Shown here: positions 7,776-22,327 of the stretch, in pieces | Position numbering within the stretch: position 1 is the first letter of the stretch | Layout: each line of letters starts with the position of its first letter | Virus record (IMG/VR): IMGVR_UViG_3300010403_000008 | Span: 1-54,941 of that record | DNA: 54,941 nucleotides | Source of the DNA: a virus | Taxonomy: Duplodnaviria > Caudoviricetes | Reading direction: 5' to 3' (one strand) | Position numbers and translations under genes: made by a program | The notes under the pieces: generated by a model | What the model was told of the DNA's origin: nothing | Database searches by the model: none | What the model saw: only the letters and a program-made list of their open reading frames with translations

Positions 7776-8834
7776 ATGGCCCGTCTTAAATCCAGACACG
7801 AATTCCCCCCAAATGGCTGGAAGTTTTACCAACCCCAAACCAGATGGGAATTGCCCGGCAACCTGTCGTTCAATGGGGCCGTGCTAGAGATTATCCAGCA
7901 TCGCACAACACACGCTGGTTTCCTGCATCAGTACAAGCTGTCTTGTGATTACAACACGGTGGCTGATGAACTGGATGAATACAATGCAGTCAGGTGCCTG
8001 AATGCCGGGCATCTGCATTTCCTGTCTGATTGCACGCAGTCTAATGACTATGCCCCCACAGGCGAAAGAACGTGGGTTTCTGACGATGTATCAAGCGGGG
8101 CTAAACGAAGGGATGTGGGCAATCTGATTACGGTAGCCCTTCCGTTTTGCAGGAAGGACGCTGGATTGATGTTCAAGCAGATTTCGTGGATGGGTGAATT
8201 GGGCGGTGCCAGAGATCATCATGCCGTCATCGCTTTCGATCACGATACCCCACAACCCGATGTGGCACGAATTGGGGATATTGCGAAGGTAGTGTTCAGA
8301 TCAGTCAGCATCTTCAACTATTCCAATCCTCCAAATACTCACGTCACATTTGCTTCCAAGCACGCATTCAACCTGATTGCTGGGTTCATGGAGAACGAAA
8401 TTAAGACTCCGTGGATTTGGTGGGAAGCAGACATGACGGCACTGAAGCCAGGGTTCATGTCGATTCTTCAGAACGCATACGAACGGGCAGGAAGGGCTTT
8501 CTTTGGGCCAATCGTGCCACAGATGGGGCATATGAATGGGACAGCCGTTTATCCACCCAACACGTACTCACTTTGCCCCAGTCTCAGGGTTAAAAATAAC
8601 GATGCGTTCGATACTGGCATGAATGGAGAACAGTCAGCGCAAAGGGCAGATGCCAGTCCGTTGATTTACCACGTCTGGTGCATGGATGGGGGCAGGTTCC
8701 ACCCTCACGGACACGGGGAGGTTCCTCACAACATCACCCCACAATTACTGAATCAGGTTCCAGCACAGGCTGTGGCCTTTCACCGTTGCAAGGATGACTC
8801 AATCATCAGACTCTTGCGAGCCAGAAACAAATAA
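7776..8834 (+). CDS. Putative glycosyltransferase fused to the N-terminal domain shared with 5987-6721
   Basis: VALPF, WIWWEADMTAL, AVYP and AFHRCKD align with 6959-7774. Confidence 0.55.
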   Translation: MARLKSRHEFPPNGWKFYQPQTRWELPGNLSFNGAVLEIIQHRTTHAGFLHQYKLSCDYNTVADELDEYNAVRCLNAGHLHFLSDCTQSNDYAPTGERTWVSDDVSSGAKRRDVGNLITVALPFCRKDAGLMFKQISWMGELGGARDHHAVIAFDHDTPQPDVARIGDIAKVVFRSVSIFNYSNPPNTHVTFASKHAFNLIAGFMENEIKTPWIWWEADMTALKPGFMSILQNAYERAGRAFFGPIVPQMGHMNGTAVYPPNTYSLCPSLRVKNNDAFDTGMNGEQSAQRADASPLIYHVWCMDGGRFHPHGHGEVPHNITPQLLNQVPAQAVAFHRCKDDSIIRLLRARNK

Positions 8835-14673: not shown

Positions 14674-14802
14674 AAAGAGGAGCAGGAACGATCACTGTAT
14701 TCAGACTTCCAAGCGCCCGAACCGGTCCTCAACTTTGGCTTGAGGGTTGCGTGATCGTTCCCATAAATCCATAATCCATGATAGCTTAAATTGCAAATTA
14801 TT

Positions 14803-16092
14803 ATGCCCGAATCCGCTACCGCCTCACCCCCACCCCCTGCCCCCGACTTCACCCCCCTGCCTGTCCAGCAAGACTCCAGCAGTGGTTCTGCCCCACCGAT
14901 TGTGCCGTCAGCATCCCCTCGTGAGATTGATGTTGGAAAAGCTTCAGGCGGGGCCAAGCAGGACAAGACGGGTTCGGGGATGGATGATTCGATGAGTGAT
15001 TTGGACAGGCTGTTTGCGGAGACGGAGGCAAAGCCGGAAAAGCCCGCTGGTAACGCGAAGGATGAGAAGAAGCAGTCTGACCAGTCTGGGGACGAAAAGC
15101 CTGCTGGTGAGGCAGCAGACGCCAAGGAAGAGGGGTCTGGTGAGAAGTCTGGGGAGGACAAGACTGGGAACGGAAAGGCTGTCAGTGCCCCTGAATTGAG
15201 GAAGGCGTACGAGGCCCTGAAGAAAGAGGCTGCTGAACTGAGGGAGAAAGTGAAGTCCCGTGGTCCATCCGAGGATCAGGTGAAGGAATTGCAGACGTTT
15301 AAGGAACAGTACGAATCTGAGTACAAGCGTAGGCAGGAATTGGAAAAGGAATTGGCACAGAGCGCGTACGAACGATCCCCAGAATTCAATGAGAAGCACG
15401 CTGGCCCGTTCCGTAATGCGTACCAGAACGCTCGTAATCGCATTGCACAGTTCAAGGTGACTGACAGTGAAGGGGCAACCAGACAGGCGAGTCCTGATGA
15501 TTTTGATGCGATCATGCAGATTGGGGATGATATGCAGGCAGCAACGGCTGCACGGGAACTGTTCGGGGATACGGTGGGACCGATTGTGATGATGCAGCGG
15601 GAGAAGGTGCAGGAATTGCATGGGTCAATGCAGAAAGCGATTGCAGATGCAGAAACCAACTTCACCAAACACCAGCAGGAACAGAAGGTGATGTCAGAGC
15701 GCAAGCAGGCGCATTTGAACAAGCTGTGGACGACGCTAAATACGGGTGCAGCCGAGAAGTACCCCCAACTGTTCAAGCCTGTGGATGGGGACGAAAAGGG
15801 CAATGAATTGCTTCAGAGAGGATTTGAGCTTGTAGATAAAGTGTTCATGGATGGGAGCCAAATGGACCCTGAAGAGACGATTAAACTGCACAGTCAAGTG
15901 CGCAACAGGGCAGCAGCGTTTGGGAGACTGGTGTACCAGAACCGTACGATGAGTGAGAAGATTGCTGCACTGGAGAAGGAGTTGAACGCCTTTAAGGATA
16001 GTGCCCCGAAGAATGGGGATGGGAGAGCGGGGAAGAAGGGGGAGGGGGAATTGTTTGGGGAGGATGCATTGGAGAAGTATGTTGATCGGTAG
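14803..16092 (+). CDS. Capsid scaffolding protein
   Basis: Pro-rich and acidic N-terminus with long coiled coils; lies between portal and MCP. Confidence 0.7.
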   Translation: MPESATASPPPPAPDFTPLPVQQDSSSGSAPPIVPSASPREIDVGKASGGAKQDKTGSGMDDSMSDLDRLFAETEAKPEKPAGNAKDEKKQSDQSGDEKPAGEAADAKEEGSGEKSGEDKTGNGKAVSAPELRKAYEALKKEAAELREKVKSRGPSEDQVKELQTFKEQYESEYKRRQELEKELAQSAYERSPEFNEKHAGPFRNAYQNARNRIAQFKVTDSEGATRQASPDDFDAIMQIGDDMQAATAARELFGDTVGPIVMMQREKVQELHGSMQKAIADAETNFTKHQQEQKVMSERKQAHLNKLWTTLNTGAAEKYPQLFKPVDGDEKGNELLQRGFELVDKVFMDGSQMDPEETIKLHSQVRNRAAAFGRLVYQNRTMSEKIAALEKELNAFKDSAPKNGDGRAGKKGEGELFGEDALEKYVDR

Positions 16093-16096
16093 GTTG

Positions 16097-16501
16097 TTAC
16101 GATTTGCTGTCATCGTTATGGCGATTCATTACGGCAAATGAGTCTTCCATATCGTTCGTGATTGAATCAAGTTCGCTGAACCATTGAATTAGGTCACGAT
16201 TCCATACCCATTGCTCCCCCTTAAGGTCTCCAGTCACGAGTCTGGCTCGTCCGTTAATGTCTCCGCTGACTTCATTTACAATCCAACAACAGAAGCGTCT
16301 TGATGGAAGACTTCTGCCCTTAAGCACACTGGGATTGAAATAGAAATCACCAGAATTGCTCTTTTTAATAATGGCTGCTATTTCTTCAGGTGTTTTGTTC
16401 CAAAGCTTCTTCTCATCTTCAAAGAAGTTGGATAGCATTTTCAATTTCTTTTGTGCATGTATAAGGCTTCGTTTTACGTCTTTTGATTTATGGGTTTTCA
16501 T
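16097..16501 (-). CDS. Hypothetical protein, last gene of the inserted cassette
   Basis: 134 aa AT-rich ORF overlapping the upstream gene. Confidence 0.55.
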   Translation of the reverse strand: MKTHKSKDVKRSLIHAQKKLKMLSNFFEDEKKLWNKTPEEIAAIIKKSNSGDFYFNPSVLKGRSLPSRRFCCWIVNEVSGDINGRARLVTGDLKGEQWVWNRDLIQWFSELDSITNDMEDSFAVMNRHNDDSKS

Positions 16502-17252
16502 TGGTTGTAAAATTTCGTGCGATCAGATCAAACCGTTCCCTTCCCTCCCGATTGCCAATTAGCTGCCATCCCCTCCATGTCATTCGATGTCCATTGACTA
16601 TACTAACAAGACCATAAGTAGCGGCACATGAAATTGAGCTTTTGTATTTCTTTCCGGGTCTCCAGTTCAGGGTTTCTGGCGGAAACAGGTCAGGATTCAT
16701 GTGAACGAATCTGGTGATGTTTTTCACATAATGAATAACCCCACTGGGGTCTCTTAAAAAGCATTCTCTGGCCCTGATGTGATTTGGACTATAGCGTTTA
16801 GATTGTGGTGTGTTTCTAATCTTTCCAAGATGCAGTTCTCTTGTGCGAATCCTATTCTTTTCAGACTGAACAGCGGCCAGCCATTTCGATTCATCCCTGA
16901 ACAAGATTGGGCTGTGTCCTTTTTCCCGTTGTTGTATCCCGTGATACAGATAGGCACATTCTCTTGAGCAAGAGATATTACTTCTTGTCTTCCATGTGGT
17001 TTGGAATGTTTTACCGCATTGTACGCATACCTTTTCCTTGTCGTTTATTCGGATGGAGTTTCCGGCACACTGGGTTGAGCAATACTTTCTCCACGAATGA
17101 TTTGGTTTCTCAAGCCATTCCTTTCCGCATTTCTTACAGGTTAATGTGATACGTTTTGGTCTCATAATGAGAACCTGCATAATGTGGGATGTATGCGGGC
17201 ACGCATTTGGGGTTTGAGGAGATGGAGGGTCATGTGCTGGTTCCGTTTTCAA
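16488..17252 (-). CDS. CxxC zinc-finger repeat protein, homing-endonuclease-like DNA-binding architecture
   Basis: CKKCGKE...YCSTQC and CVQCGKTF...SCSREC repeats, with C-terminal LRDPSG..HYVKNI..F and WRGWQL. True start may be the ATG at 17165. Confidence 0.55.
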   Translation of the reverse strand: MKTEPAHDPPSPQTPNACPHTSHIMQVLIMRPKRITLTCKKCGKEWLEKPNHSWRKYCSTQCAGNSIRINDKEKVCVQCGKTFQTTWKTRSNISCSRECAYLYHGIQQREKGHSPILFRDESKWLAAVQSEKNRIRTRELHLGKIRNTPQSKRYSPNHIRARECFLRDPSGVIHYVKNITRFVHMNPDLFPPETLNWRPGKKYKSSISCAATYGLVSIVNGHRMTWRGWQLIGNREGRERFDLIARNFTTNENP

Positions 17253-17754
17253 TCTGTCTCAGTCCAGACTTGATCGACTCTTCTGCCGTCAGCCTGCGTT
17301 TAGCTGCCTCCGTAGCTGCTTCTAACGTATTGAGTGATCGTTTAGATGTTGCCATCGCAATCACTCCATGACTGCTGAACTGAGCGTGGAATTTGATTCG
17401 TTCTTCGTTCGTCATTTTATCCGGGTCTGCATCCTTGACCAACATTCTTCGGATGGTTCGTCTTGAGAGCCTGTGAATTCGTCTGGTTGCATCTGCTCCA
17501 ACCATGTGAAATTCACCAGCCTTCAGCCTGCGAATTCCTTGACCCCGCACATGGGCGAAATACTTCCCCGTCTCACGCTGAACGATTAGGATTGCACGAG
17601 ACAGAATCCATGCGTGTTTCTTGAACAATTCACGTCCCGGTGTCAGTGCCTGCAATTCAGCCCTTGTGATCAATTCGTGATGCTCAATCTTGTTTAGGTA
17701 TCGAGCGATGGTCACGGAATCAATGTTGGCCTGATGTGGGATTGCTGACTGCAT
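17230..17754 (-). CDS. Accessory protein of the Cas7-like/array cassette, possibly winged-HTH
   Basis: LITRAEL...ILSRAILIVQRETGKYFAHVRGQGIRRL; starts 6 nt after array 4. Confidence 0.65.
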   Translation of the reverse strand: MQSAIPHQANIDSVTIARYLNKIEHHELITRAELQALTPGRELFKKHAWILSRAILIVQRETGKYFAHVRGQGIRRLKAGEFHMVGADATRRIHRLSRRTIRRMLVKDADPDKMTNEERIKFHAQFSSHGVIAMATSKRSLNTLEAATEAAKRRLTAEESIKSGLRQIENGTST

Positions 17755-17760
17755 AAAATA

Positions 17761-17920
17761 GAGTGGTGTGTGGTGATTTGACTTGGGGTTATGTGCAGTG
17801 CGGTAGCTTGACGTGATCTGATTTGCGGTGCTGTGGGTTACTGTGTATTGGATTGCCGTGGCGTGAAGTGGCGTGCGTTTGATTGAGTTAGTGTGGCTTG
17901 CAGTGTTTTGGTGTGACGTG
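17761..17920 (-). repeat. Pentamer guide-like array 4: 32 units of CAM-NN (plus strand NN-KTG)
   Basis: Exact 5-nt period: gaGTG gtGTG tgGTG atTTG acTTG ggGTT atGTG caGTG...; non-coding. Confidence 0.9.
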
Positions 17921-17941
17921 GAGAGAAATTGGCCCCTAAAG

Positions 17942-18071
17942 ATGGTGTGTTGTGTCGTGCGTTGTTGTGACTTGATTTAGGGTGCAGTGGAATGCTGTGG
18001 GTTGCAGTGTAATGTTGTGACTTATCGTGCTGTGGTTTTGAGTGGAGTGGCGTGACTTGGGATGTAGTGTG
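17942..18071 (-). repeat. Pentamer guide-like array 3: 26 units
   Basis: ATGgt GTGtt GTGtc GTGcg TTGtt GTGac TTGat TTAgg GTGca GTGga...; exact 5-nt period. Confidence 0.9.
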
Positions 18072-18098
18072 GAGAAATTAAACAGCACGCAATGGGGG

Positions 18099-18228
18099 AT
18101 GGTGTGGAGTGTTGTGAGTTGGCGTGTCTTGTGTTGGCACGAATTGCGGTGTCGTGTTTTGATTTAGCGTGCAGTGTTTTGAAGTGTTGTGTGTTGCGGT
18201 GCCTTGTTGTGTCCTGATGTGTTTTGGT
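18099..18228 (-). repeat. Pentamer guide-like array 2: 26 units
   Basis: ATGgt GTGga GTGtt GTGag TTGgc GTGtc...; begins 2 nt after the Cas7-like stop codon. Confidence 0.9.
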
Positions 18229-18230
18229 GA

Positions 18231-18791
18231 TTAAATTCGTTCTAACTTGGACACTTCAAATCGACCATTAGTTCCGCCCTTCTCAGCACGGAACTGGCCC
18301 AACCCAATGAACATCCCCGCATGGTCCAAATGCTCCCGTAAAATCTTCTCGTCAATCGCATCATCCAGAACGGCGATTGTAACGGTGGTCTTCCATGAAG
18401 TCAGGGTTGGGATGCAGCGAGCAACCCGCTTTCCTGAGCCTCGTATCCCGTCTGAGTTGGCGTTGATCCAGATTGGCTTGGCATCAGCACGAGTCATCCC
18501 AAGGTCCGCATCGTCCATCACGAGTAGGCCGCTCTCGAACAGCTTCGTATAGGTTCGTTTACCCTTACCCGGAACCTGTCTGCCAAGATGCTTGGCTGCT
18601 GCACAGATGCAGAACTTCAGAGCCATAGCTGGAATGATGCACCTACCAGCCTCGTTTACGCGAAGCTTTTCGAGGTAGCAGCGAACTTCAAAATCTTCGT
18701 GGGTTTCGCGGTCTGCGCGTTTGGACGTGAATGGAGCGCCTCCCCCTAACGGGGTGACGGATTGTAAGGTTACTCGGAATTTGTTTAACAT
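18231..18791 (-). CDS. Stand-alone Cas7/RAMP-like RNA-binding protein (Vipr-like)
   Basis: RAMP hallmarks: N-terminal FRVTLQSVTPL strand, IIPAMALK (IP.S.LKG-like), and a C-terminal Gly-rich loop AGMFIGLGQFRAEKGGTNGRFEV. Confidence 0.8.
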   Translation of the reverse strand: MLNKFRVTLQSVTPLGGGAPFTSKRADRETHEDFEVRCYLEKLRVNEAGRCIIPAMALKFCICAAAKHLGRQVPGKGKRTYTKLFESGLLVMDDADLGMTRADAKPIWINANSDGIRGSGKRVARCIPTLTSWKTTVTIAVLDDAIDEKILREHLDHAGMFIGLGQFRAEKGGTNGRFEVSKLERI

Positions 18792-18910
18792 GATGGAGTG
18801 ATGTGGTGTGTTTTGGTGTGCCGTGTCTTGATGTGTCGTGTGGTGTCTTGAATTGCAGTGAAGTGAGGTAGGTTGGTTTGCTGTGCAATGGTTTGTGTTG
18901 TCGTGTCGTT
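18791..18910 (-). repeat. Pentamer guide-like array 1: 24 units, decodes to an MCP-gene target
   Basis: Minus strand AACga CACga CAAca CAAac CATtg CACag CAAac CAAcc TACct CACtt CACtg CAAtt CAAga CACca CACga CACat...; abuts the Cas7-like start codon. Confidence 0.92.
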
Positions 18911-18914
18911 TCGG

Positions 18915-19064
18915 GTCCGGTTAGACCGGACAAAAAGTCCGCTCAGGTGAAAGACCAGATCGAATGGGGCTGGTCCGGTTTCCCGGAACTGAGCGGACCG
19001 AAAGTCCAAAGTGTCAGTCTTGCGCCATTCGACCGGCTTTCACACCAGTCACGGACGAGCGGAC
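18915..19064 (-). ncRNA. Structured, potentially pseudoknotted leader RNA of the cassette
   Basis: Perfect complementary pairs: 18915-21/18925-31, 18937-46/18989-98, 18953-58/18970-75, 18960-67/19025-32 and 18947-53/19037-43. Confidence 0.55.
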
Positions 19065-19091
19065 AATCCACCACTACCAGATGTTTGTCAA
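19063..19091 (-). promoter_or_regulatory. Putative sigma70 promoter driving the leader, arrays and Cas7-like operon
   Basis: Minus strand TTGACA-N17-GATTGT. Confidence 0.5.
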
Positions 19092-19103
19092 ATTGAAATC
19101 CGT

Positions 19104-19132
19104 TTGACTTTTACTTTACCGATAATTATTGT
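19104..19132 (+). promoter_or_regulatory. Putative sigma70 promoter for the MCP operon, divergent from the cassette promoter
   Basis: TTGACT-N17-TATTGT. Confidence 0.55.
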
Positions 19133-19308
19133 GCAAAACAGCTAGGCGTAATTGGCTTTCACTAGCGGCCATCACCTGTCGTTCGGGGTGGAATAAACAA
19201 TCGAACTACAGCGTAGCGGTATGGGAACCAGAAGGTTCGCTGTTCTTCAAAAGAATCCCCAACGGAATCTCTCACGTACGAGAGAAAAACTTTTAACGAA
19301 GAACTAAA

Positions 19309-20640
19309 ATGGCTAGTACACTTTCCTGTGGGGCATTTACTCAGTACCTCGTCGATCAGCTACCTGTTTATGATAAGTTGATTTTGGAGGACATTCGTCC
19401 GATGGACGGTTGGATCGGACATGTTAAGACGGGTACGTTCGAGGCGTACTCGGGCACAGAGCATACTCTGGACCGTTTCAATCACGTGTACCCGGATACA
19501 ACCAAGGCTTGGTCCCGAACTCAGGCCAGTAATTGCATCGGAACTCCTTGTGACAAAACGGAATACTGCATTGGGTGGGGTGCGACAAGAATCACTTATT
19601 TTTTGGAAGAGCAAAGTTGGGCGACGCCATTACTTTGTTTCGATCAGGAAATGCACATCACAAAAGCAAGAGAAAATTTCCGATATATTATCGGAGGAAT
19701 TCTCAAGCCCGCCACTTCGACCATCATGTCGAACTTCCTGCGTCGTCGTGCCCTCACGATTGGCACGGGCAAGAAGTGGGTGGCCAATGCCACAATGTCT
19801 GATTTCGTGCCCACCTGGGTCACTGTAGGCGGTTCTGAACTGTATCTGGACGTGACTGTGGAACCCACTTCCCGGCTCACTCCACAAATGCTTCAGCGTC
19901 GTGTGTCCCCACTCATGCTGATGGGCTATTTCGGGAAGAACCCGTTCGGGGACCGCAAATCCATTCCTTTGATCGAACTGGTCACTGGCATGGAAACTCT
20001 GTGGGACTTGGACAAGCAGGTCTGCGACAGCAACATCTCTGGCGCATGGCGGTTCACAGAATGGACGGCAGCCAACGAGTACTGGCGGTACGGCTTCAAC
20101 GGGCAGTTGGGCAACTACGCAACCCGTGCAGACCCAATGGAGATGCGGTTCAACCGTGTTGGTCCCGTGGCTGGTGGCAAGATTCGTTTCCAGTTCATCC
20201 AGCCCTACGTGAACGTCGCATCCAGTGGGGCTGGTGGTGCCCCCGGTCTCAAGTCGATTGAGAATGAAGACTGGCAGAATGCTCGTTACTCCATCAGCTT
20301 CATCTGGCACAAGATGGCGATGGAAGCACTGGTCGCAGACGCAACCCCGGTCAATCCCGAAATGCCATTCTCGTCCCGTAACTTCGGTGGACGCTGGCAG
20401 TTCGTGAAGGACAACCTGGGTGCGTGTGAGGACGGGACAGTCATTGAGAACAAGCGCGGGAACAAGGGTCAGTTCATCAGCGACTTCAAGCTGTCGATCA
20501 GACCCATGTACACCGAATTCGCGGAAGCGATCTTCCACATGCGCAATCGGGCCTGCATCACGATCTGCCCTCCGTGTGGCACTGATCCTGGGTATCCGAC
20601 TCAGAGCTACAACAGTTGCAATCCTGACTGCACACCGTAA
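19309..20640 (+). CDS. Major capsid protein
   Basis: 443 aa, follows the scaffold (apart from the insert), strongly biased codon usage, and followed by a terminator hairpin. Confidence 0.75.
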   Translation: MASTLSCGAFTQYLVDQLPVYDKLILEDIRPMDGWIGHVKTGTFEAYSGTEHTLDRFNHVYPDTTKAWSRTQASNCIGTPCDKTEYCIGWGATRITYFLEEQSWATPLLCFDQEMHITKARENFRYIIGGILKPATSTIMSNFLRRRALTIGTGKKWVANATMSDFVPTWVTVGGSELYLDVTVEPTSRLTPQMLQRRVSPLMLMGYFGKNPFGDRKSIPLIELVTGMETLWDLDKQVCDSNISGAWRFTEWTAANEYWRYGFNGQLGNYATRADPMEMRFNRVGPVAGGKIRFQFIQPYVNVASSGAGGAPGLKSIENEDWQNARYSISFIWHKMAMEALVADATPVNPEMPFSSRNFGGRWQFVKDNLGACEDGTVIENKRGNKGQFISDFKLSIRPMYTEFAEAIFHMRNRACITICPPCGTDPGYPTQSYNSCNPDCTP

Positions 20641-20759: not shown

Positions 20760-21125
20760 ATGCCAGTAATTTACGGGAATAATCACAAGGAGAGTGACGA
20801 TGACGGTTACTCGGATGATTCAGGGATGGATTCCAAGGACGGGATGGCCAAGGAGGACAATGATGATTCAGCATCTGCGTTGCTGCCCAAATCAGTTCTT
20901 GGGGATCACAAGCTTAAGCCCGGAGATCAGGTCATTCTGGAAGTGGTCCACATTTATGAGGATGAAGTGGAAGTGAAGTACGGGAAGAAGAACAAGAAGG
21001 ACAAGGATAAGGACGATTCTGACGAGAACGAAGACAAGCCTGATCGTAATGACGATGACGATAATTCAGCAGGCAGTCAGATGGACATGTCTCAGAAGCA
21101 ACTGAGTGGCTTGATGGACGAATAA
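20760..21125 (+). CDS. Highly acidic small protein
   Basis: Asp-rich termini around an LKPGDQVILEVVHIYEDEVEVKY core. Confidence 0.6.
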   Translation: MPVIYGNNHKESDDDGYSDDSGMDSKDGMAKEDNDDSASALLPKSVLGDHKLKPGDQVILEVVHIYEDEVEVKYGKKNKKDKDKDDSDENEDKPDRNDDDDNSAGSQMDMSQKQLSGLMDE

Positions 21126-21127
21126 TC

Positions 21128-21682
21128 ATGGCAATCGCCTGCGATGCTGCCTCGTTGATGCTCAATGCCGCCTGTATTACTGAGTGCATTGCGCATGGGC
21201 AGGCGAACGCAATCAAGACCCAGCTTCTGGCTGACATTGCGGGTGGTTCTCAGGACCCGGGCACCCTCCTAGACGCTGCCCGCTGTTTCCTTTGCCTGAC
21301 CCGTACACAACTACTGGCCATTCGCGTTTACCTGCTGGCCATTCTATCCGGTACGTCTCCCACATCTCAGGCGATACAGGATCAATCGTGTTGCCTGCAA
21401 AATTGTCTGACCATTGGTCAGTTGAGTCTAATCCAGATTTACATTCTGGCAGTCAAGGCTGGTGAGTCTCCTAATGGCAATCTCCTCGATCCTGCCCGTT
21501 GCTTCCTTTCCTGCCTGATGGGGATTCAGAATGATGCGATCCAGACCTACCTTCTGGCTGTGATTGCGGGTGGTTCGACTGACCAGCAAGCCCTTCTATC
21601 ACTCGCTTCCTGTATTCTGGAATGCCTGTCTGGAGAGCAGTTGCTGGCTGCTGAGACGGTCCTAATGTGTCTTTGGGTTTAA
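21128..21682 (+). CDS. Cys-rich internally repeated protein, putative virion component (paralog 1)
   Basis: About five repeats of LL.AA.C..CL...QL.AI..YLLA. Confidence 0.65.
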   Translation: MAIACDAASLMLNAACITECIAHGQANAIKTQLLADIAGGSQDPGTLLDAARCFLCLTRTQLLAIRVYLLAILSGTSPTSQAIQDQSCCLQNCLTIGQLSLIQIYILAVKAGESPNGNLLDPARCFLSCLMGIQNDAIQTYLLAVIAGGSTDQQALLSLASCILECLSGEQLLAAETVLMCLWV

Positions 21683-21685
21683 GAT

Positions 21686-22327
21686 ATGCCATTTGAATGC
21701 GATGCAGCCTCACTGGTAGAAGCAGGGTGTTGCGTTTCCTGTTTGGAAGGGGGTCAGCTACAGGCAATCAAGACCCATCTGCTGGCCCAAATCGCAGGAG
21801 TCCCAACAAACATCGCTTCCCTGCTTGAAGCAGCCAGTTGTTTCTTCTGTCTGACCAGTCAACAATTGGCAGCAATCAGGGTGTGGCTTCTGGCTGACTT
21901 GGGTGGGATTGAACAGGACCCACAGGCGATCATGGATGAAACATGCTGCCTGTTGCAGTGCTTGTCCAAATTTCAAGCACTGTCTGCCCAAGTCGCAATC
22001 CTGGCTGAAATCAATGGGGACGATCCAAACAACGTTGCTGGGATGTTCAATGCTTGTTGTGAACTCTCTTGTCTGTCTGGAATTCAAAACGATGCGGTCC
22101 AAACTTATTTGGTGGCAGTTGCTGCGGGTGGTAGCACAGATGCAATCGAACTATTCGGGAATGCATCATGCGTTTATACATGTCTTTCACCGGGCCAGAT
22201 GGTGTATGCTGAAACAGCGATGATGTGTGCATGGTCAAACAATCTGGGTGGAACGTTCTTCAGGATCACTGACGATTTGGAACGAAGAATTACTGACGAA
22301 CTGGATAACAGGATTTGGAGAAATTGA
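21686..22327 (+). CDS. Cys-rich internally repeated protein (paralog 2) with a C-terminal RITD..ERRITD motif
   Basis: Co-linear with 21128-21682; the C-terminus resembles short fibre-attachment motifs. Confidence 0.65.
   Translation: MPFECDAASLVEAGCCVSCLEGGQLQAIKTHLLAQIAGVPTNIASLLEAASCFFCLTSQQLAAIRVWLLADLGGIEQDPQAIMDETCCLLQCLSKFQALSAQVAILAEINGDDPNNVAGMFNACCELSCLSGIQNDAVQTYLVAVAAGGSTDAIELFGNASCVYTCLSPGQMVYAETAMMCAWSNNLGGTFFRITDDLERRITDELDNRIWRN

What the first reader, a model, noticed from the sequence alone, without database searches (positions are those of the whole stretch)
17230..19091. Stand-alone Cas7/RAMP-like gene with four pentamer (CAM-NN) arrays: candidate RNA-guided system using a gapped code
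Seen: a 186-aa ORF with RAMP/Cas7 hallmarks (N-terminal VTLQSVTPL, IIPAMALK, C-terminal Gly-rich loop). It is flanked by four non-coding arrays with an exact 5-nt period (24, 26, 26 and 32 units; 108 total). On the gene's strand each unit is a near-constant triplet (mostly CAC/CAA; the central A is present in 107 of 108) plus a freely varying dinucleotide. There are no CRISPR repeats and no cas1/2/3/5/6. Known: Cas7 proteins polymerise along guide RNAs with a fixed nucleotide step. Inference: one subunit binds each pentamer through the constant triplet, and the NN pairs read a target two bases at a time, skipping one. I recall reports of phage 'VIPR' systems with GGY/NN units and such a code but cannot verify that here. 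If so, this is a variant with a different constant triplet (CAM).
Basis: partly seen in the sequence, partly recalled or inferred. Interest (0 to 1): 0.97.

Follow-up and report, generated by a model that had tools for sequence, protein, structure and literature searches.

The report
Phage VIPR system with CAM/NN guide repeats
This is a phage-borne RNA-guided VIPR system, a recently described relative of CRISPR, that uses an unusual constant triplet (CAC/CAA instead of GGY) in its guide repeats, and one of its guides matches the capsid gene of related phages two bases in every three.

Summary
The complete 54.9-kb phage genome has exactly four period-5 arrays (22, 26, 26 and 32 units), all beside one 186-aa gene. 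On the gene strand each unit is CA[C/A]+NN.

The protein folds as a Cas7/Csm3-like RAMP (pLDDT 95.7; Foldseek E about 4e-8). Its family profile aligns to the experimentally studied SUSP1 Vipr (hhalign 96.4%, E 1e-9). In IMG/VR, 77 of 80 homologous loci carry pentamer arrays, and 67 of 81 loci share the downstream 174-aa gene (vap).

It is therefore a member of the VIPR systems published in 2026. A preprint of October 2026 already mentions CAC/NN repeats, so the kind is known.

Two results here were not found in the text I read:
- The upstream array, read by the published one-base-skip rule, matches a conserved site in the putative capsid gene of related phages. All 21 exact database hits lie at that site, and a sister phage's guide matches 24 of 24 bases.
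- The middle base of the constant triplet covaries with the G-loop residue that aligns to SUSP1 D177. It is Arg in 57 of 57 G-type loci and Gln in 5 of 5 CAC loci.

No RNA data exist, and targets of the other three arrays were not found.

The parts
18231..18791 (-). vipr gene: 186-aa Cas7-like RAMP protein with the G-loop GLGQFRAEKGGTNGRF
   Evidence: ORF. AF2 pLDDT 95.7. Foldseek top hits are type VII Cas7 and Csm3, E 3.6e-8 to 1e-6, TM 0.5-0.6. hhalign of family alignment A1 against SUSP1 Vipr: Prob 96.4%, E 1.1e-9. phrog_4652, E 4e-11. No Pfam match.
18796..18905 (-). Upstream vrRNA array A4: 22 CAM/NN units that end 4 nt before the vipr start codon. Its NN string matches the capsid-gene site.
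   Evidence: Target matches.
18097..18226 (-). Downstream vrRNA array A3: 26 units, target not found
   Evidence: Searches.
17940..18069 (-). Downstream vrRNA array A2: 26 units, target not found
   Evidence: Searches.
17761..17920 (-). Downstream vrRNA array A1: 32 units that end 6 nt before the vap start codon. Only an unconfirmed 19/20 partial match was found, in L083.
17230..17754 (-). vap: conserved 174-aa accessory gene with an N-terminal winged-helix-like domain and a helical C-terminal part
   Evidence: Family found once per locus, on the vipr strand, in 67 of 81 loci. AF2 pLDDT 92.1. Foldseek matches are weak (E 0.15-0.5, prob about 0.9 over about 72 residues) to the ToxR, OmpR and SaeR DNA-binding domains.
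18906..19075 (-). Conserved, strongly structured 170-nt stretch directly upstream of array A4. Its role is unknown (leader, processing element or promoter region).
   Evidence: About 80% identical in sister phage L001. MFE -74.3 kcal/mol, z -4.1; the other strand gives z -4.2. No Rfam match.
19608..19673 (+). Site in the phage's own putative capsid gene that resembles the A4 target (32 of 44 NN bases). The skipped base falls on codon position 3.
19309..20640 (+). 443-aa putative major capsid protein gene. Its homologs in other phages carry the A4 target.
   Evidence: Protein Atlas: the nearest clusters that have a Pfam family are capsid families, which is a lead only. No Pfam, PHROG or cultured-phage match. 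It follows a scaffold-like 433-aa gene.

Best explanation
The locus 17230-19075 (minus strand) is a VIPR (Viral Interference Programmable Repeat) system of a complete 54.9-kb soil phage. It consists of a Vipr RAMP protein, a winged-helix-like accessory protein (vap) and four vrRNA arrays. One array lies upstream of vipr and three lie between vipr and vap.

By homology with SUSP1 VIPR, the arrays are transcribed on the gene strand. Vipr protomers polymerise along the RNA, one per 5-nt unit. They sequester the constant triplet (here CAC/CAA instead of GGY) and present each NN pair. The filament then binds double-stranded DNA whose sequence reads xNNxNN... and blocks transcription.

The upstream array is aimed at a conserved stretch of the putative major capsid gene of a related phage lineage, about 300 bp into the gene. 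The skipped base sits on the codon wobble position, so synonymous change gives little escape. The guide has the sense of the coding strand, so it can pair only with the template DNA strand and not with the mRNA.

The switch of the triplet's middle base from G to A goes with a change of one G-loop residue (Arg to Gln at position 166, which aligns to SUSP1 D177).

Shown here: the anatomy, the fold, the homology, the family-wide linkage, the target match and the covariation. Inferred: transcription, RNP formation and repression.
For: Anatomy:
- The window holds only four period-5 arrays and all flank the gene. There are 106 CAM/NN units with A at position 2 in 105 of 106.

Protein:
- AF2 pLDDT is 95.7. 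Foldseek gives 168 PDB matches at E <= 0.001, and the top hits are Cas7/Csm3.
- hhalign of the family profile against SUSP1 Vipr gives Prob 96.4%, E 1.1e-9. The SUSP1 ORF was checked against the paper's residues H17, R138, D177, W178 and R179.
- tblastn hits in cultured phages (LESphi2, E 6e-7; LittleE gp34, E 4e-4) are flanked by canonical GGC/NN arrays on the gene strand.

Family:
- 487 IMG/VR stretches encode relatives. Of the 80 loci fetched, 77 have period-5 arrays.
- Array triplets on the gene strand are CGC 140, GGC 59, CTC 21, CAC 14, GAC 11 and GTC 10.
- vap occurs in 67 of 81 loci.
- In sister phage L001 (92% aa identity), the flanks and genes align but the arrays do not.

Target:
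- A4 at skip 1 matches 19608-19673 at 32 of 44 bases. Other skips give at most 28, and 200 unit-order shuffles give mean 24.8, maximum 30.
- A 10-unit pattern (20 specified bases) has 7 exact hits in IMG/VR and 14 in metagenomes. All 21 lie at the homologous site of capsid homologs with 53-73% aa identity.
- In two complete target-phage genomes, skip 1 gives 28 of 32, against at most 21 for other skips and at most 23 for shuffles.
- The upstream guide of L001 matches L089 at 24 of 24 bases over its first 12 units.
- Family-wide, best matches of at least 19 of 20 occur for 7 arrays at skip 1 and for 0 at skips 0 and 2.

Covariation:
- Residue 166 is R in 57 of 57 loci with G at position 2. It is Q in 5 of 5 CAC loci, F in 4 of 5 GAC loci and T in 2 of 6 CTC loci (Fisher p 4.5e-8, not corrected for phylogeny).
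- All 18 bacterial-genome loci that have arrays are CGC with R. That scan's own search pattern required R or Q at this position.
Against: - No RNA data exist. No listed sequencing run holding the stretch is RNA, so transcription, strand and processing are unproven.
- There is no SUSP1-like ~40-nt 3' tail or pseudoknot. The arrays run to within 4-6 nt of the next start codon or are separated by 19-27 nt.
- The arrays have 22-32 units, against 9-16 for SUSP1-clade vrRNAs.
- Targets for A1, A2 and A3 were not found. Five further IMG/VR patterns gave 0, 0, 0, 1 and 7 hits, none of which extended.
- A4 has three mismatched bases (its 3rd and 5th units) against every sampled target.
- Over all 22 units, A4 matches its own capsid gene about as well (73%) as foreign ones (73-77%). 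Discrimination between self and non-self is therefore not demonstrated.
- The capsid assignment of the 443-aa protein rests on leads only.
- The covariation is partly phylogenetic. CAC may be a single origin, and 10 of 21 non-G loci keep Arg.
Confidence: 0.85

Rival explanations
1. It is the same VIPR machinery, but the upstream guide regulates the phage's own capsid gene (timing or dosage of late expression) rather than attacking competitors.
For: The best match in the phage's own genome lies in the adjacent, divergently oriented putative capsid gene: 32 of 44 bases, or 27 of 32 in the core. Over all 22 units the self match (73%) is close to the foreign matches (73-77%). The guide of L001 matches L001's own gene at 20 of 24 bases over its first 12 units (read from the rows).
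Against: Foreign capsid genes match better where it matters. They show a perfect 10-unit run in 21 contigs, against 18 of 20 in self, and 24 of 24 for the L001 guide in L089, against 20 of 24 in self. The phage's own gene differs at two units through synonymous Leu codon changes (TTA-CTT instead of CTN-TTG), as expected for self-avoidance. The published study found no self-targeting hit at >=80% NN match (Methods passage).
Confidence: 0.12
2. The arrays are transcribed from the opposite (+) strand as KTG/NN units, and the structured 18906-19075 stretch is then a 3' tail of the upstream array.
For: On the + strand, the structured region lies 3' of array A4, as a vrRNA tail would, and it folds as well on that strand (z -4.2). 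A target match cannot tell the strands apart.
Against: In homologous loci with canonical units, the arrays read GGC/NN on the gene strand. The SUSP1 arrays read GGT/NN on the strand of vipr. The other three arrays have no such tail on the + strand. Position 3 is C across all triplet types on the gene strand, matching the Y of GGY.
Confidence: 0.07
3. The arrays are non-functional simple-sequence DNA (a slippage-prone microsatellite) that happens to lie next to a RAMP-fold gene.
For: Whole-unit (5-nt) insertion variants exist in related metagenome contigs, as slippage would give.
Against: The variable dinucleotides use all 16 combinations with no repeated higher-order unit. Arrays accompany the gene in 77 of 80 loci, with locus-specific constant triplets. 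The NN strings match a capsid gene in period-3 register.
Confidence: 0.01

Closest known systems
VIPR systems, type II as in Escherichia phage SUSP1 and the P. fulva prophage (bioRxiv 10.64898/2026.04.26.720920, .720927 and 10.64898/2026.10.15.759431)
   Same: - It is phage-borne, with a minimal two-gene locus (vipr plus vap).
- One array lies upstream of the genes and three lie downstream of vipr; in SUSP1 all three follow both genes (paper text; arrays located).
- The units are 5 nt, with a constant triplet and a hypervariable NN.
- Targets are read with a one-base skip, and the skipped base falls on the codon wobble position.
- The target is a gene of a competing mobile element.
- The protein family is profile-homologous to SUSP1 Vipr.
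   Different: - The constant triplet is CAC/CAA, not GGY. A purine is accepted at position 3 in 39 of 106 units.
- The G-loop residue aligned to SUSP1 D177 is Gln, and the G-loop carries a 4-residue insertion.
- The arrays have 22-32 units, not 9-16.
- No ~40-nt pseudoknotted tail is present. Instead the last units are conserved (CACAC-CAY...) and abut the next gene.
- The target is a capsid gene of related phages, not a satellite recombinase or a lysogeny regulator.
- In this locus vap lies after all three downstream arrays.
Non-canonical VIPR arrays (GAC/NN, CAC/NN, WGT/NN, TGH/NN) reported in the Evo-PIN/COMPASS survey (bioRxiv 10.64898/2026.10.21.760802; passages read)
   Same: The CAC/NN repeat pattern lies next to a Vipr-like fold. 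This locus most likely belongs to one of those 21 clusters.
   Different: That survey, in the passages I read, reports the motif and the fold only. It gives no targets, no targeting rule for these variants and no protein-RNA covariation. Its figures and supplements were not visible to me.
Class 1 CRISPR-Cas backbone subunits (Cas7, Csm3, Cmr4, type VII Cas7)
   Same: It shares the RRM/RAMP fold with a G-loop and a thumb (Foldseek E about 4e-8). By homology, it polymerises along a guide RNA with a fixed step.
   Different: There are no CRISPR repeats or spacers and no Cas1. The step is 5 nt with 3 bases sequestered, rather than 6 nt with 1 flipped. It targets dsDNA with a gapped code.

Membership tests
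VIPR | Vipr protein: a small single-RRM RAMP with a G-loop and a thumb, homologous to characterised Vipr proteins | tested here: met
   AF2 pLDDT 95.7. Foldseek top hits are Cas7/Csm3. hhalign against SUSP1 Vipr: Prob 96.4%, E 1.1e-9, 126 columns.
VIPR | Tandem 5-nt units flanking vipr, each with a constant triplet alternating with a hypervariable NN | tested here: met
   Four arrays with 106 units. The arrays do not align between 92%-identical sister phages, while the genes do.
VIPR | The constant triplet is GGY (canonical consensus) | tested here: not met
   The triplets are CAC 57, CAA 30, CAT 6 and others 13, of 106. The original paper allows 'a related consensus' (NNNGG, YNNNG, NNNNG), and none of these fits CAM. 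CAC/NN is listed as non-canonical VIPR in the October 2026 preprint.
VIPR | Targets are recognised with a one-base skip (guide NN to target xNN) | tested here: met
   For A4, skip 1 stands out against skips 0, 2 and 3 and against shuffles. All 21 exact hits are at one capsid-gene site. The L001 guide matches 24 of 24. A1-A3 are inconclusive.
VIPR | An accessory vap gene predicted to act on DNA | tested here: met
   A conserved neighbour is present in 67 of 81 loci. The winged-helix-like N-terminal domain has weak fold matches only. Which of the published vap1-6 it is could not be determined.
VIPR | vrRNAs are expressed and co-purify with Vipr | not testable with these tools
   No RNA run holds the locus.
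VIPR | A conserved structured 3' tail caps each vrRNA (SUSP1 clade) | tested here: inconclusive
   No ~40-nt tail is present. The last 2-3 units are conserved among all 7 arrays of the window and L001, and the spacers are short. The paper describes other array architectures (staggered, ribozyme-separated), so this feature may not be universal.
VIPR | Virus-borne minimal locus without CRISPR array or adaptation genes | tested here: met
   The virus record has direct terminal repeats and an estimated completeness of 100%, with no Cas1. Rfam gives no match.
CRISPR-Cas class 1 | A repeat-spacer array and cas gene set (cas1, cas2, cas5, cas6, large subunit) | tested here: not met
   No CRISPR repeat family in Rfam, no long direct repeats in TRF and no Cas1. 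The other cas families were not searched individually.

The most novel reading that the evidence does not exclude
The constant triplet and one or a few G-loop and beta1 residues form a matched 'handle code'. Position 166 is Asp, Arg, Gln, Phe or Thr with GGY, (C/G)GC, CAC, GAC or CTC respectively. In addition, the WIN/L001 lineage has replaced the near-invariant YSQS motif by LGGG.

On this reading, lineages such as this CAM type are orthogonal VIPR systems. They would have evolved so that a phage's Vipr cannot be loaded with, or diverted by, the orphan or decoy vrRNAs of competitors. That would give a natural set of mutually insulated RNA-guided DNA binders.
Probability: 0.3. Interest if true: 0.7.

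Novelty: new member of a known kind. Interest (0 to 1): 0.5.

Why it matters
VIPR is a class of RNA-guided DNA-binding system described in 2026 and proposed as an ancestor of the CRISPR backbone proteins. All experimental work so far is on GGY/NN guides.

This locus shows three things for a lineage whose constant triplet shares no base with GG:
- Its guides still follow the one-base-skip code, shown here by natural targets.
- The family is large and mostly uncultured. It has 1087 clusters at 50% identity, and most of the 19 bacterial-genome loci are in Alphaproteobacteria.
- The triplet's middle base tracks the residue that aligns to a known base-contacting residue of SUSP1 Vipr.

If that pairing is causal, it offers a route to orthogonal, co-expressible VIPR tools. 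It would also help explain how phages avoid guide hijacking. Finally, the locus adds capsid genes of related phages to the list of natural VIPR targets.

Tried and rejected
- Pfam gave nothing for vipr, vap or ORF134, and only sub-threshold zinc-ribbon hits for ORF254. A PDB sequence search gave one chance hit, E 0.36.
- Rfam at E <= 10 over 16000-19500 gave only a chance mir-981 hit. Rfam at gathering thresholds over the whole window gave 0. The structured stretch upstream of A4 therefore matches no known ribozyme family.
- Tandem Repeats Finder sees only a fragment of one array.
- The promoter and terminator scan was no better than shuffles.
- Targets of A1-A3:
  - No match above shuffles in the window, in 80+ loci, or in the two complete target-phage genomes.
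  - Central 9-unit patterns gave 0 IMG/VR hits each.
  - 5' patterns gave 1 hit (A3) and 7 hits (A2), but none extended beyond the seed and they are not homologous to one another.
  - The 19/20 partial match of A1 in L083, next to that phage's orphan arrays, found no second instance. It is left as unconfirmed.
- Skip-3 high scores in the family-wide test are array-to-array matches and are not evidence.
- My first impression that foreign targets pass 80% over the whole A4 array while self fails was wrong. Over 22 units the figures are 73-77% against 73%.
- No RNA holder was listed for the locus. The DNA contigs laid come from relatives and say nothing on expression.
- The capsid protein has no match in cultured phages, Pfam or PHROGs.
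- PHROGs named none of the 10 largest other ORFs.
Kin of a virus record are not drawn.
- Supplementary files and figures of the four preprints were not visible. Fig. S17 of the first and Fig. S10 of the COMPASS paper may already show CAC-type logos or more. For each preprint I saw:
  - 10.64898/2026.04.26.720920: the outline, the whole Results, Methods sections 20 and 26, and find passages.
  - 10.64898/2026.04.26.720927: the outline and part 1 of 2 of the Results.
  - 10.64898/2026.10.15.759431: the outline and abstract only.
  - 10.64898/2026.10.21.760802: find passages only.
- The statement that targets and covariation for CAC-type VIPR are not in print rests only on two searches and on those readings.


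Full report
**What is there.**
The window is a complete virus record of 54,941 bp with direct terminal repeats and an estimated completeness of 100%. The only run that holds the whole stretch is labelled soil metagenome and may be its source.

Two genes lie on the minus strand between a scaffold-like gene (14791-16092, plus strand) and a 443-aa gene (19309-20640, plus strand). The 443-aa gene is probably the major capsid protein. That call rests only on Atlas leads to capsid families, because Pfam, PHROGs and cultured phages gave nothing. The two minus-strand genes are a 186-aa ORF (18231-18791) and a 174-aa ORF (17230-17754).

A column-conservation scan found period-5 segments at exactly four places in the whole genome, all beside the 186-aa ORF. 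Periods 3, 4, 6, 7 and 8 gave none. On the gene strand the arrays hold 22, 26, 26 and 32 units of the form CA[C/A]NN:
- Position 2 is A in 105 of 106 units.
- Position 1 is C in 96 of 106.
- Position 3 is C in 60, A in 37, T in 7 and G in 2.
- The last two positions use all 16 dinucleotides.

Its count of 24 for the upstream array includes two degenerate leading units.

**The protein.**
Pfam finds nothing, and PHROGs gives only phrog_4652, of unknown function (E 4e-11).

An AlphaFold2 model built on 48 homologs is confident (pLDDT 95.7, pTM 0.88). Foldseek against the PDB returns 168 matches at E <= 0.001. The top ones are type VII Cas7 and type III Csm3 (E 3.6e-8 and upward, TM 0.5-0.6).

I located the experimentally studied Vipr of phage SUSP1 in its genome record. 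It is a 195-aa ORF between four GGT/NN arrays, and its residues H17, R138, D177, W178 and R179 agree with those named in the cryo-EM preprint. A profile of the window's family aligns to it with 96.4% probability (E 1.1e-9, 126 columns).

Weak tblastn relatives in cultured phages (LESphi2 P21_9, E 6e-7; LittleE gp34, E 4e-4) are also flanked by canonical GGC/NN arrays on the gene strand.

**The family.**
The protein has 1087 representative relatives at 50% clustering (E <= 0.001). In IMG/VR, 487 stretches encode a relative.

Of the 80 loci fetched, 77 carry period-5 arrays, almost always adjoining the gene. On the gene strand the constant triplets are:

| Triplet | Arrays |
|---|---|
| CGC | 140 |
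| GGC | 59 |
| CTC | 21 |
| CAC | 14 |
| GAC | 11 |
| GTC | 10 |

The third base is C in every type. The GGC loci read as canonical GGY on the gene strand, so by homology the RNA strand of the window's arrays is the gene strand.

A profile grown from the 174-aa ORF finds exactly one member, on the same strand, in 67 of 81 loci. This is the accessory gene (vap). Its model (pLDDT 92.1) has an N-terminal domain of about 72 residues with weak matches to winged-helix DNA-binding domains such as ToxR, OmpR and SaeR (E 0.15-0.5, prob about 0.9). This agrees with the published statement that some vap genes encode winged-helix or HTH proteins.

In sister phage L001 (Vipr 92% identical), the flanks, vipr and vap align at 76-81% DNA identity but the arrays do not align at all. 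A related metagenome contig carries a whole-unit 5-nt insertion in the upstream array.

In bacterial genomes a narrow pattern scan found 19 loci, mostly in Alphaproteobacteria. Of these, 18 have arrays.

**What is known.**
VIPR systems were described in 2026 (bioRxiv 10.64898/2026.04.26.720920):
- They are phage-borne Vipr RAMP proteins with vrRNAs of GGY/NN units.
- They recognise double-stranded DNA with one skipped base per unit and repress transcription. Their natural targets are competing mobile elements.
- Seven types and alternative repeats NNNGG, YNNNG and NNNNG are listed.

The structural preprint shows one protomer per unit. G1 is read by H17 and D177, G2 by R138 and W178, and Y3 sits in a pocket that excludes purines. 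A third preprint (abstract only) reports codon-periodic targeting and orphan vrRNAs. A fourth, dated 22 October 2026, mentions in passing 21 clusters with non-canonical units 'e.g. GAC/NN or CAC/NN' next to Vipr-like folds.

The window is therefore a member of a known kind, and its triplet type has already been noticed in print.

**Test of the code on this locus.**
I replaced each constant triplet by 0 to 3 wildcard bases and slid the NN strings along the genome, with the arrays masked.

The upstream array (A4) at skip 1 matches 19608-19673 on the plus strand at 32 of 44 bases. The other skips reach at most 28. Two hundred shuffles of the unit order give mean 24.8 and maximum 30. The site lies inside the putative capsid gene, and the skipped base is codon position 3.

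A 10-unit pattern from the centre of A4 (20 specified bases) has 7 exact hits in IMG/VR and 14 in the metagenome collection. All 21 lie at the homologous site of capsid homologs with 53-73% amino-acid identity. Across the hits the skipped bases vary while the NN bases are kept.

Control patterns from the other arrays (18-19 specified bases) gave 0, 0, 0, 1, 1 and 7 hits. The 19-base pattern found only L083, the locus it was derived from. None of the other hits extended or shared a gene.

In two complete genomes of target phages, which have no DNA similarity to the window, skip 1 gives 28 of 32 over 16 units. The other skips give at most 21, and shuffles at most 23. One of these two genomes has no Vipr relative, and the other has a distant one elsewhere in the genome.

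The upstream guide of L001 covers an overlapping stretch of the same gene, shifted toward the gene's 5' end. Its first 12 units match L089 at 24 of 24 bases, and its last three units belong to the terminal motif shared by all arrays.

Across 260 arrays of the family, best 10-unit matches of at least 19 of 20 occur for 7 arrays at skip 1 and for none at skips 0 or 2. Skip-3 hits are array-to-array artefacts.

The guide has the sense of the coding strand. It can therefore pair only with the template DNA strand and not with the mRNA, which fits DNA targeting.

**Self or non-self?**
In the 16-unit core the phage's own gene matches 27 of 32, against 29-30 of 32 for foreign genes. Two of the self mismatches are synonymous Leu codon changes. 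Over all 22 units, however, self (73%) and foreign (73-77%) are alike. A4 also carries three mismatched bases against every sampled target.

I favour competition with related phages, as published for other VIPRs. Self-regulation of the capsid gene is not excluded.

**Handle covariation.**
I assigned each of 78 loci its triplet and aligned the proteins. The column most informative for the middle base is residue 166, the x in GLGxFR just before the G-loop:

| Triplet type | Residue 166 |
|---|---|
| Middle base G (57 loci) | Arg in 57 of 57 |
| CAC (5 loci) | Gln in 5 of 5 |
| GAC (5 loci) | Phe in 4 of 5 |
| CTC (6 loci) | Thr in 2 of 6 |

Among all non-G loci, 10 of 21 keep Arg (Fisher p 4.5e-8, not corrected for phylogeny). 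On a quick tree, the three different replacements imply at least three events, and CAC may be a single origin.

In the hhalign alignment, residue 166 is the counterpart of SUSP1 D177, a residue that hydrogen-bonds a guanine of GGY and is required for silencing. Three distant Viprs with GGY units have Asp there: SUSP1, LittleE and the one in G001.

The first base (C or G) tracks residues 112 (N or P) and 172 (G or N). The WIN/L001 lineage, the only one that accepts A at position 3, has replaced the near-invariant YSQS at 15-18 by LGGG, W39 by Y and P169 by A.

These are leads to a matched protein-handle code, not proof.

**Differences from the studied systems.**
- The arrays are longer: 22-32 units, against 9-16.
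- There is no ~40-nt pseudoknotted tail. Instead, all seven arrays of the window and L001 end in similar units (CACAC-CAY...). They then run to within a few bases of the next start codon or are followed by a 19-27-nt spacer ending in ATTTCTCC.
- A conserved 170-nt stretch upstream of A4 is strongly structured (z -4.1) and has no Rfam match. Its role is open.

**Limits.**
- There is no expression evidence. No RNA run holds the locus.
- The targets of A1-A3 are unknown, and so is the host.

**Verdict.**
This is a genuine, complete VIPR system of the non-canonical CAC/CAA type. The kind is already known, so novelty is modest. The natural capsid-gene target and the residue-triplet covariation are the additions worth testing.

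Noticed in passing
window 16097-17252 (minus strand): Two ORFs lie directly downstream of vap: a 254-aa ORF with HNH-endonuclease-like zinc-ribbon hits (phrog_1271, E 5.6e-7) and a 134-aa ORF with no match. Both are absent from sister phage L001, where the corresponding gap is about 700 nt shorter. This looks like a homing-endonuclease-type insertion.
   Followed up: partly
window 18906-19075: A 170-nt stretch upstream of array A4 is about 80% conserved in L001. It folds into a long three-way-junction hairpin plus a small hairpin (MFE -74.3 kcal/mol, z -4.1; the other strand gives z -4.2). It matches no Rfam family.
   Followed up: partly
L083:8329-8485 and 8579-8607: A phage that carries the A4 capsid target has two period-5 arrays between its capsid and scaffold genes, with no Vipr relative in the held stretch (orphan vrRNAs?). 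Array A1 of the window matches 19 of 20 bases right next to them. No second instance was found in IMG/VR.
   Followed up: partly
L105 (G001:C1:26464-26913): One complete target phage (56,878 bp) encodes a distant Vipr relative (E 4e-13) at another genome position, with a GGT/NN array and Asp at the residue-166 position. The other complete target phage (G002) has none.
   Followed up: partly
window 21128-21682 and 21686-22327 (plus strand): Two adjacent paralogous ORFs (184 and 213 aa) are built of similar Cys-containing segments (for example CDAASL...C..C...Q..AIKT.LLA.IAG). Their function is unknown.
   Followed up: no
window 20954-21066: This is the only other periodic segment in the genome. 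It has period 9 and lies inside the acidic, Lys/Asp-rich 121-aa ORF 20760-21125, just after the putative capsid gene.
   Followed up: no
window 18823: A contig from a freshwater metagenome run (X2) carries a 5-nt insertion (one whole unit) in array A4. A contig from run X5 replaces 100 nt of arrays A2/A3 (17974-18075) with 40 other letters. Arrays therefore change by units and blocks.
   Followed up: no
window, whole genome: The phage is very poorly covered by reference families. Of the 10 largest other ORFs, only 2 hit a PHROG at E <= 1e-5, and both hits are of unknown function. Rfam finds no RNA gene.
   Followed up: no
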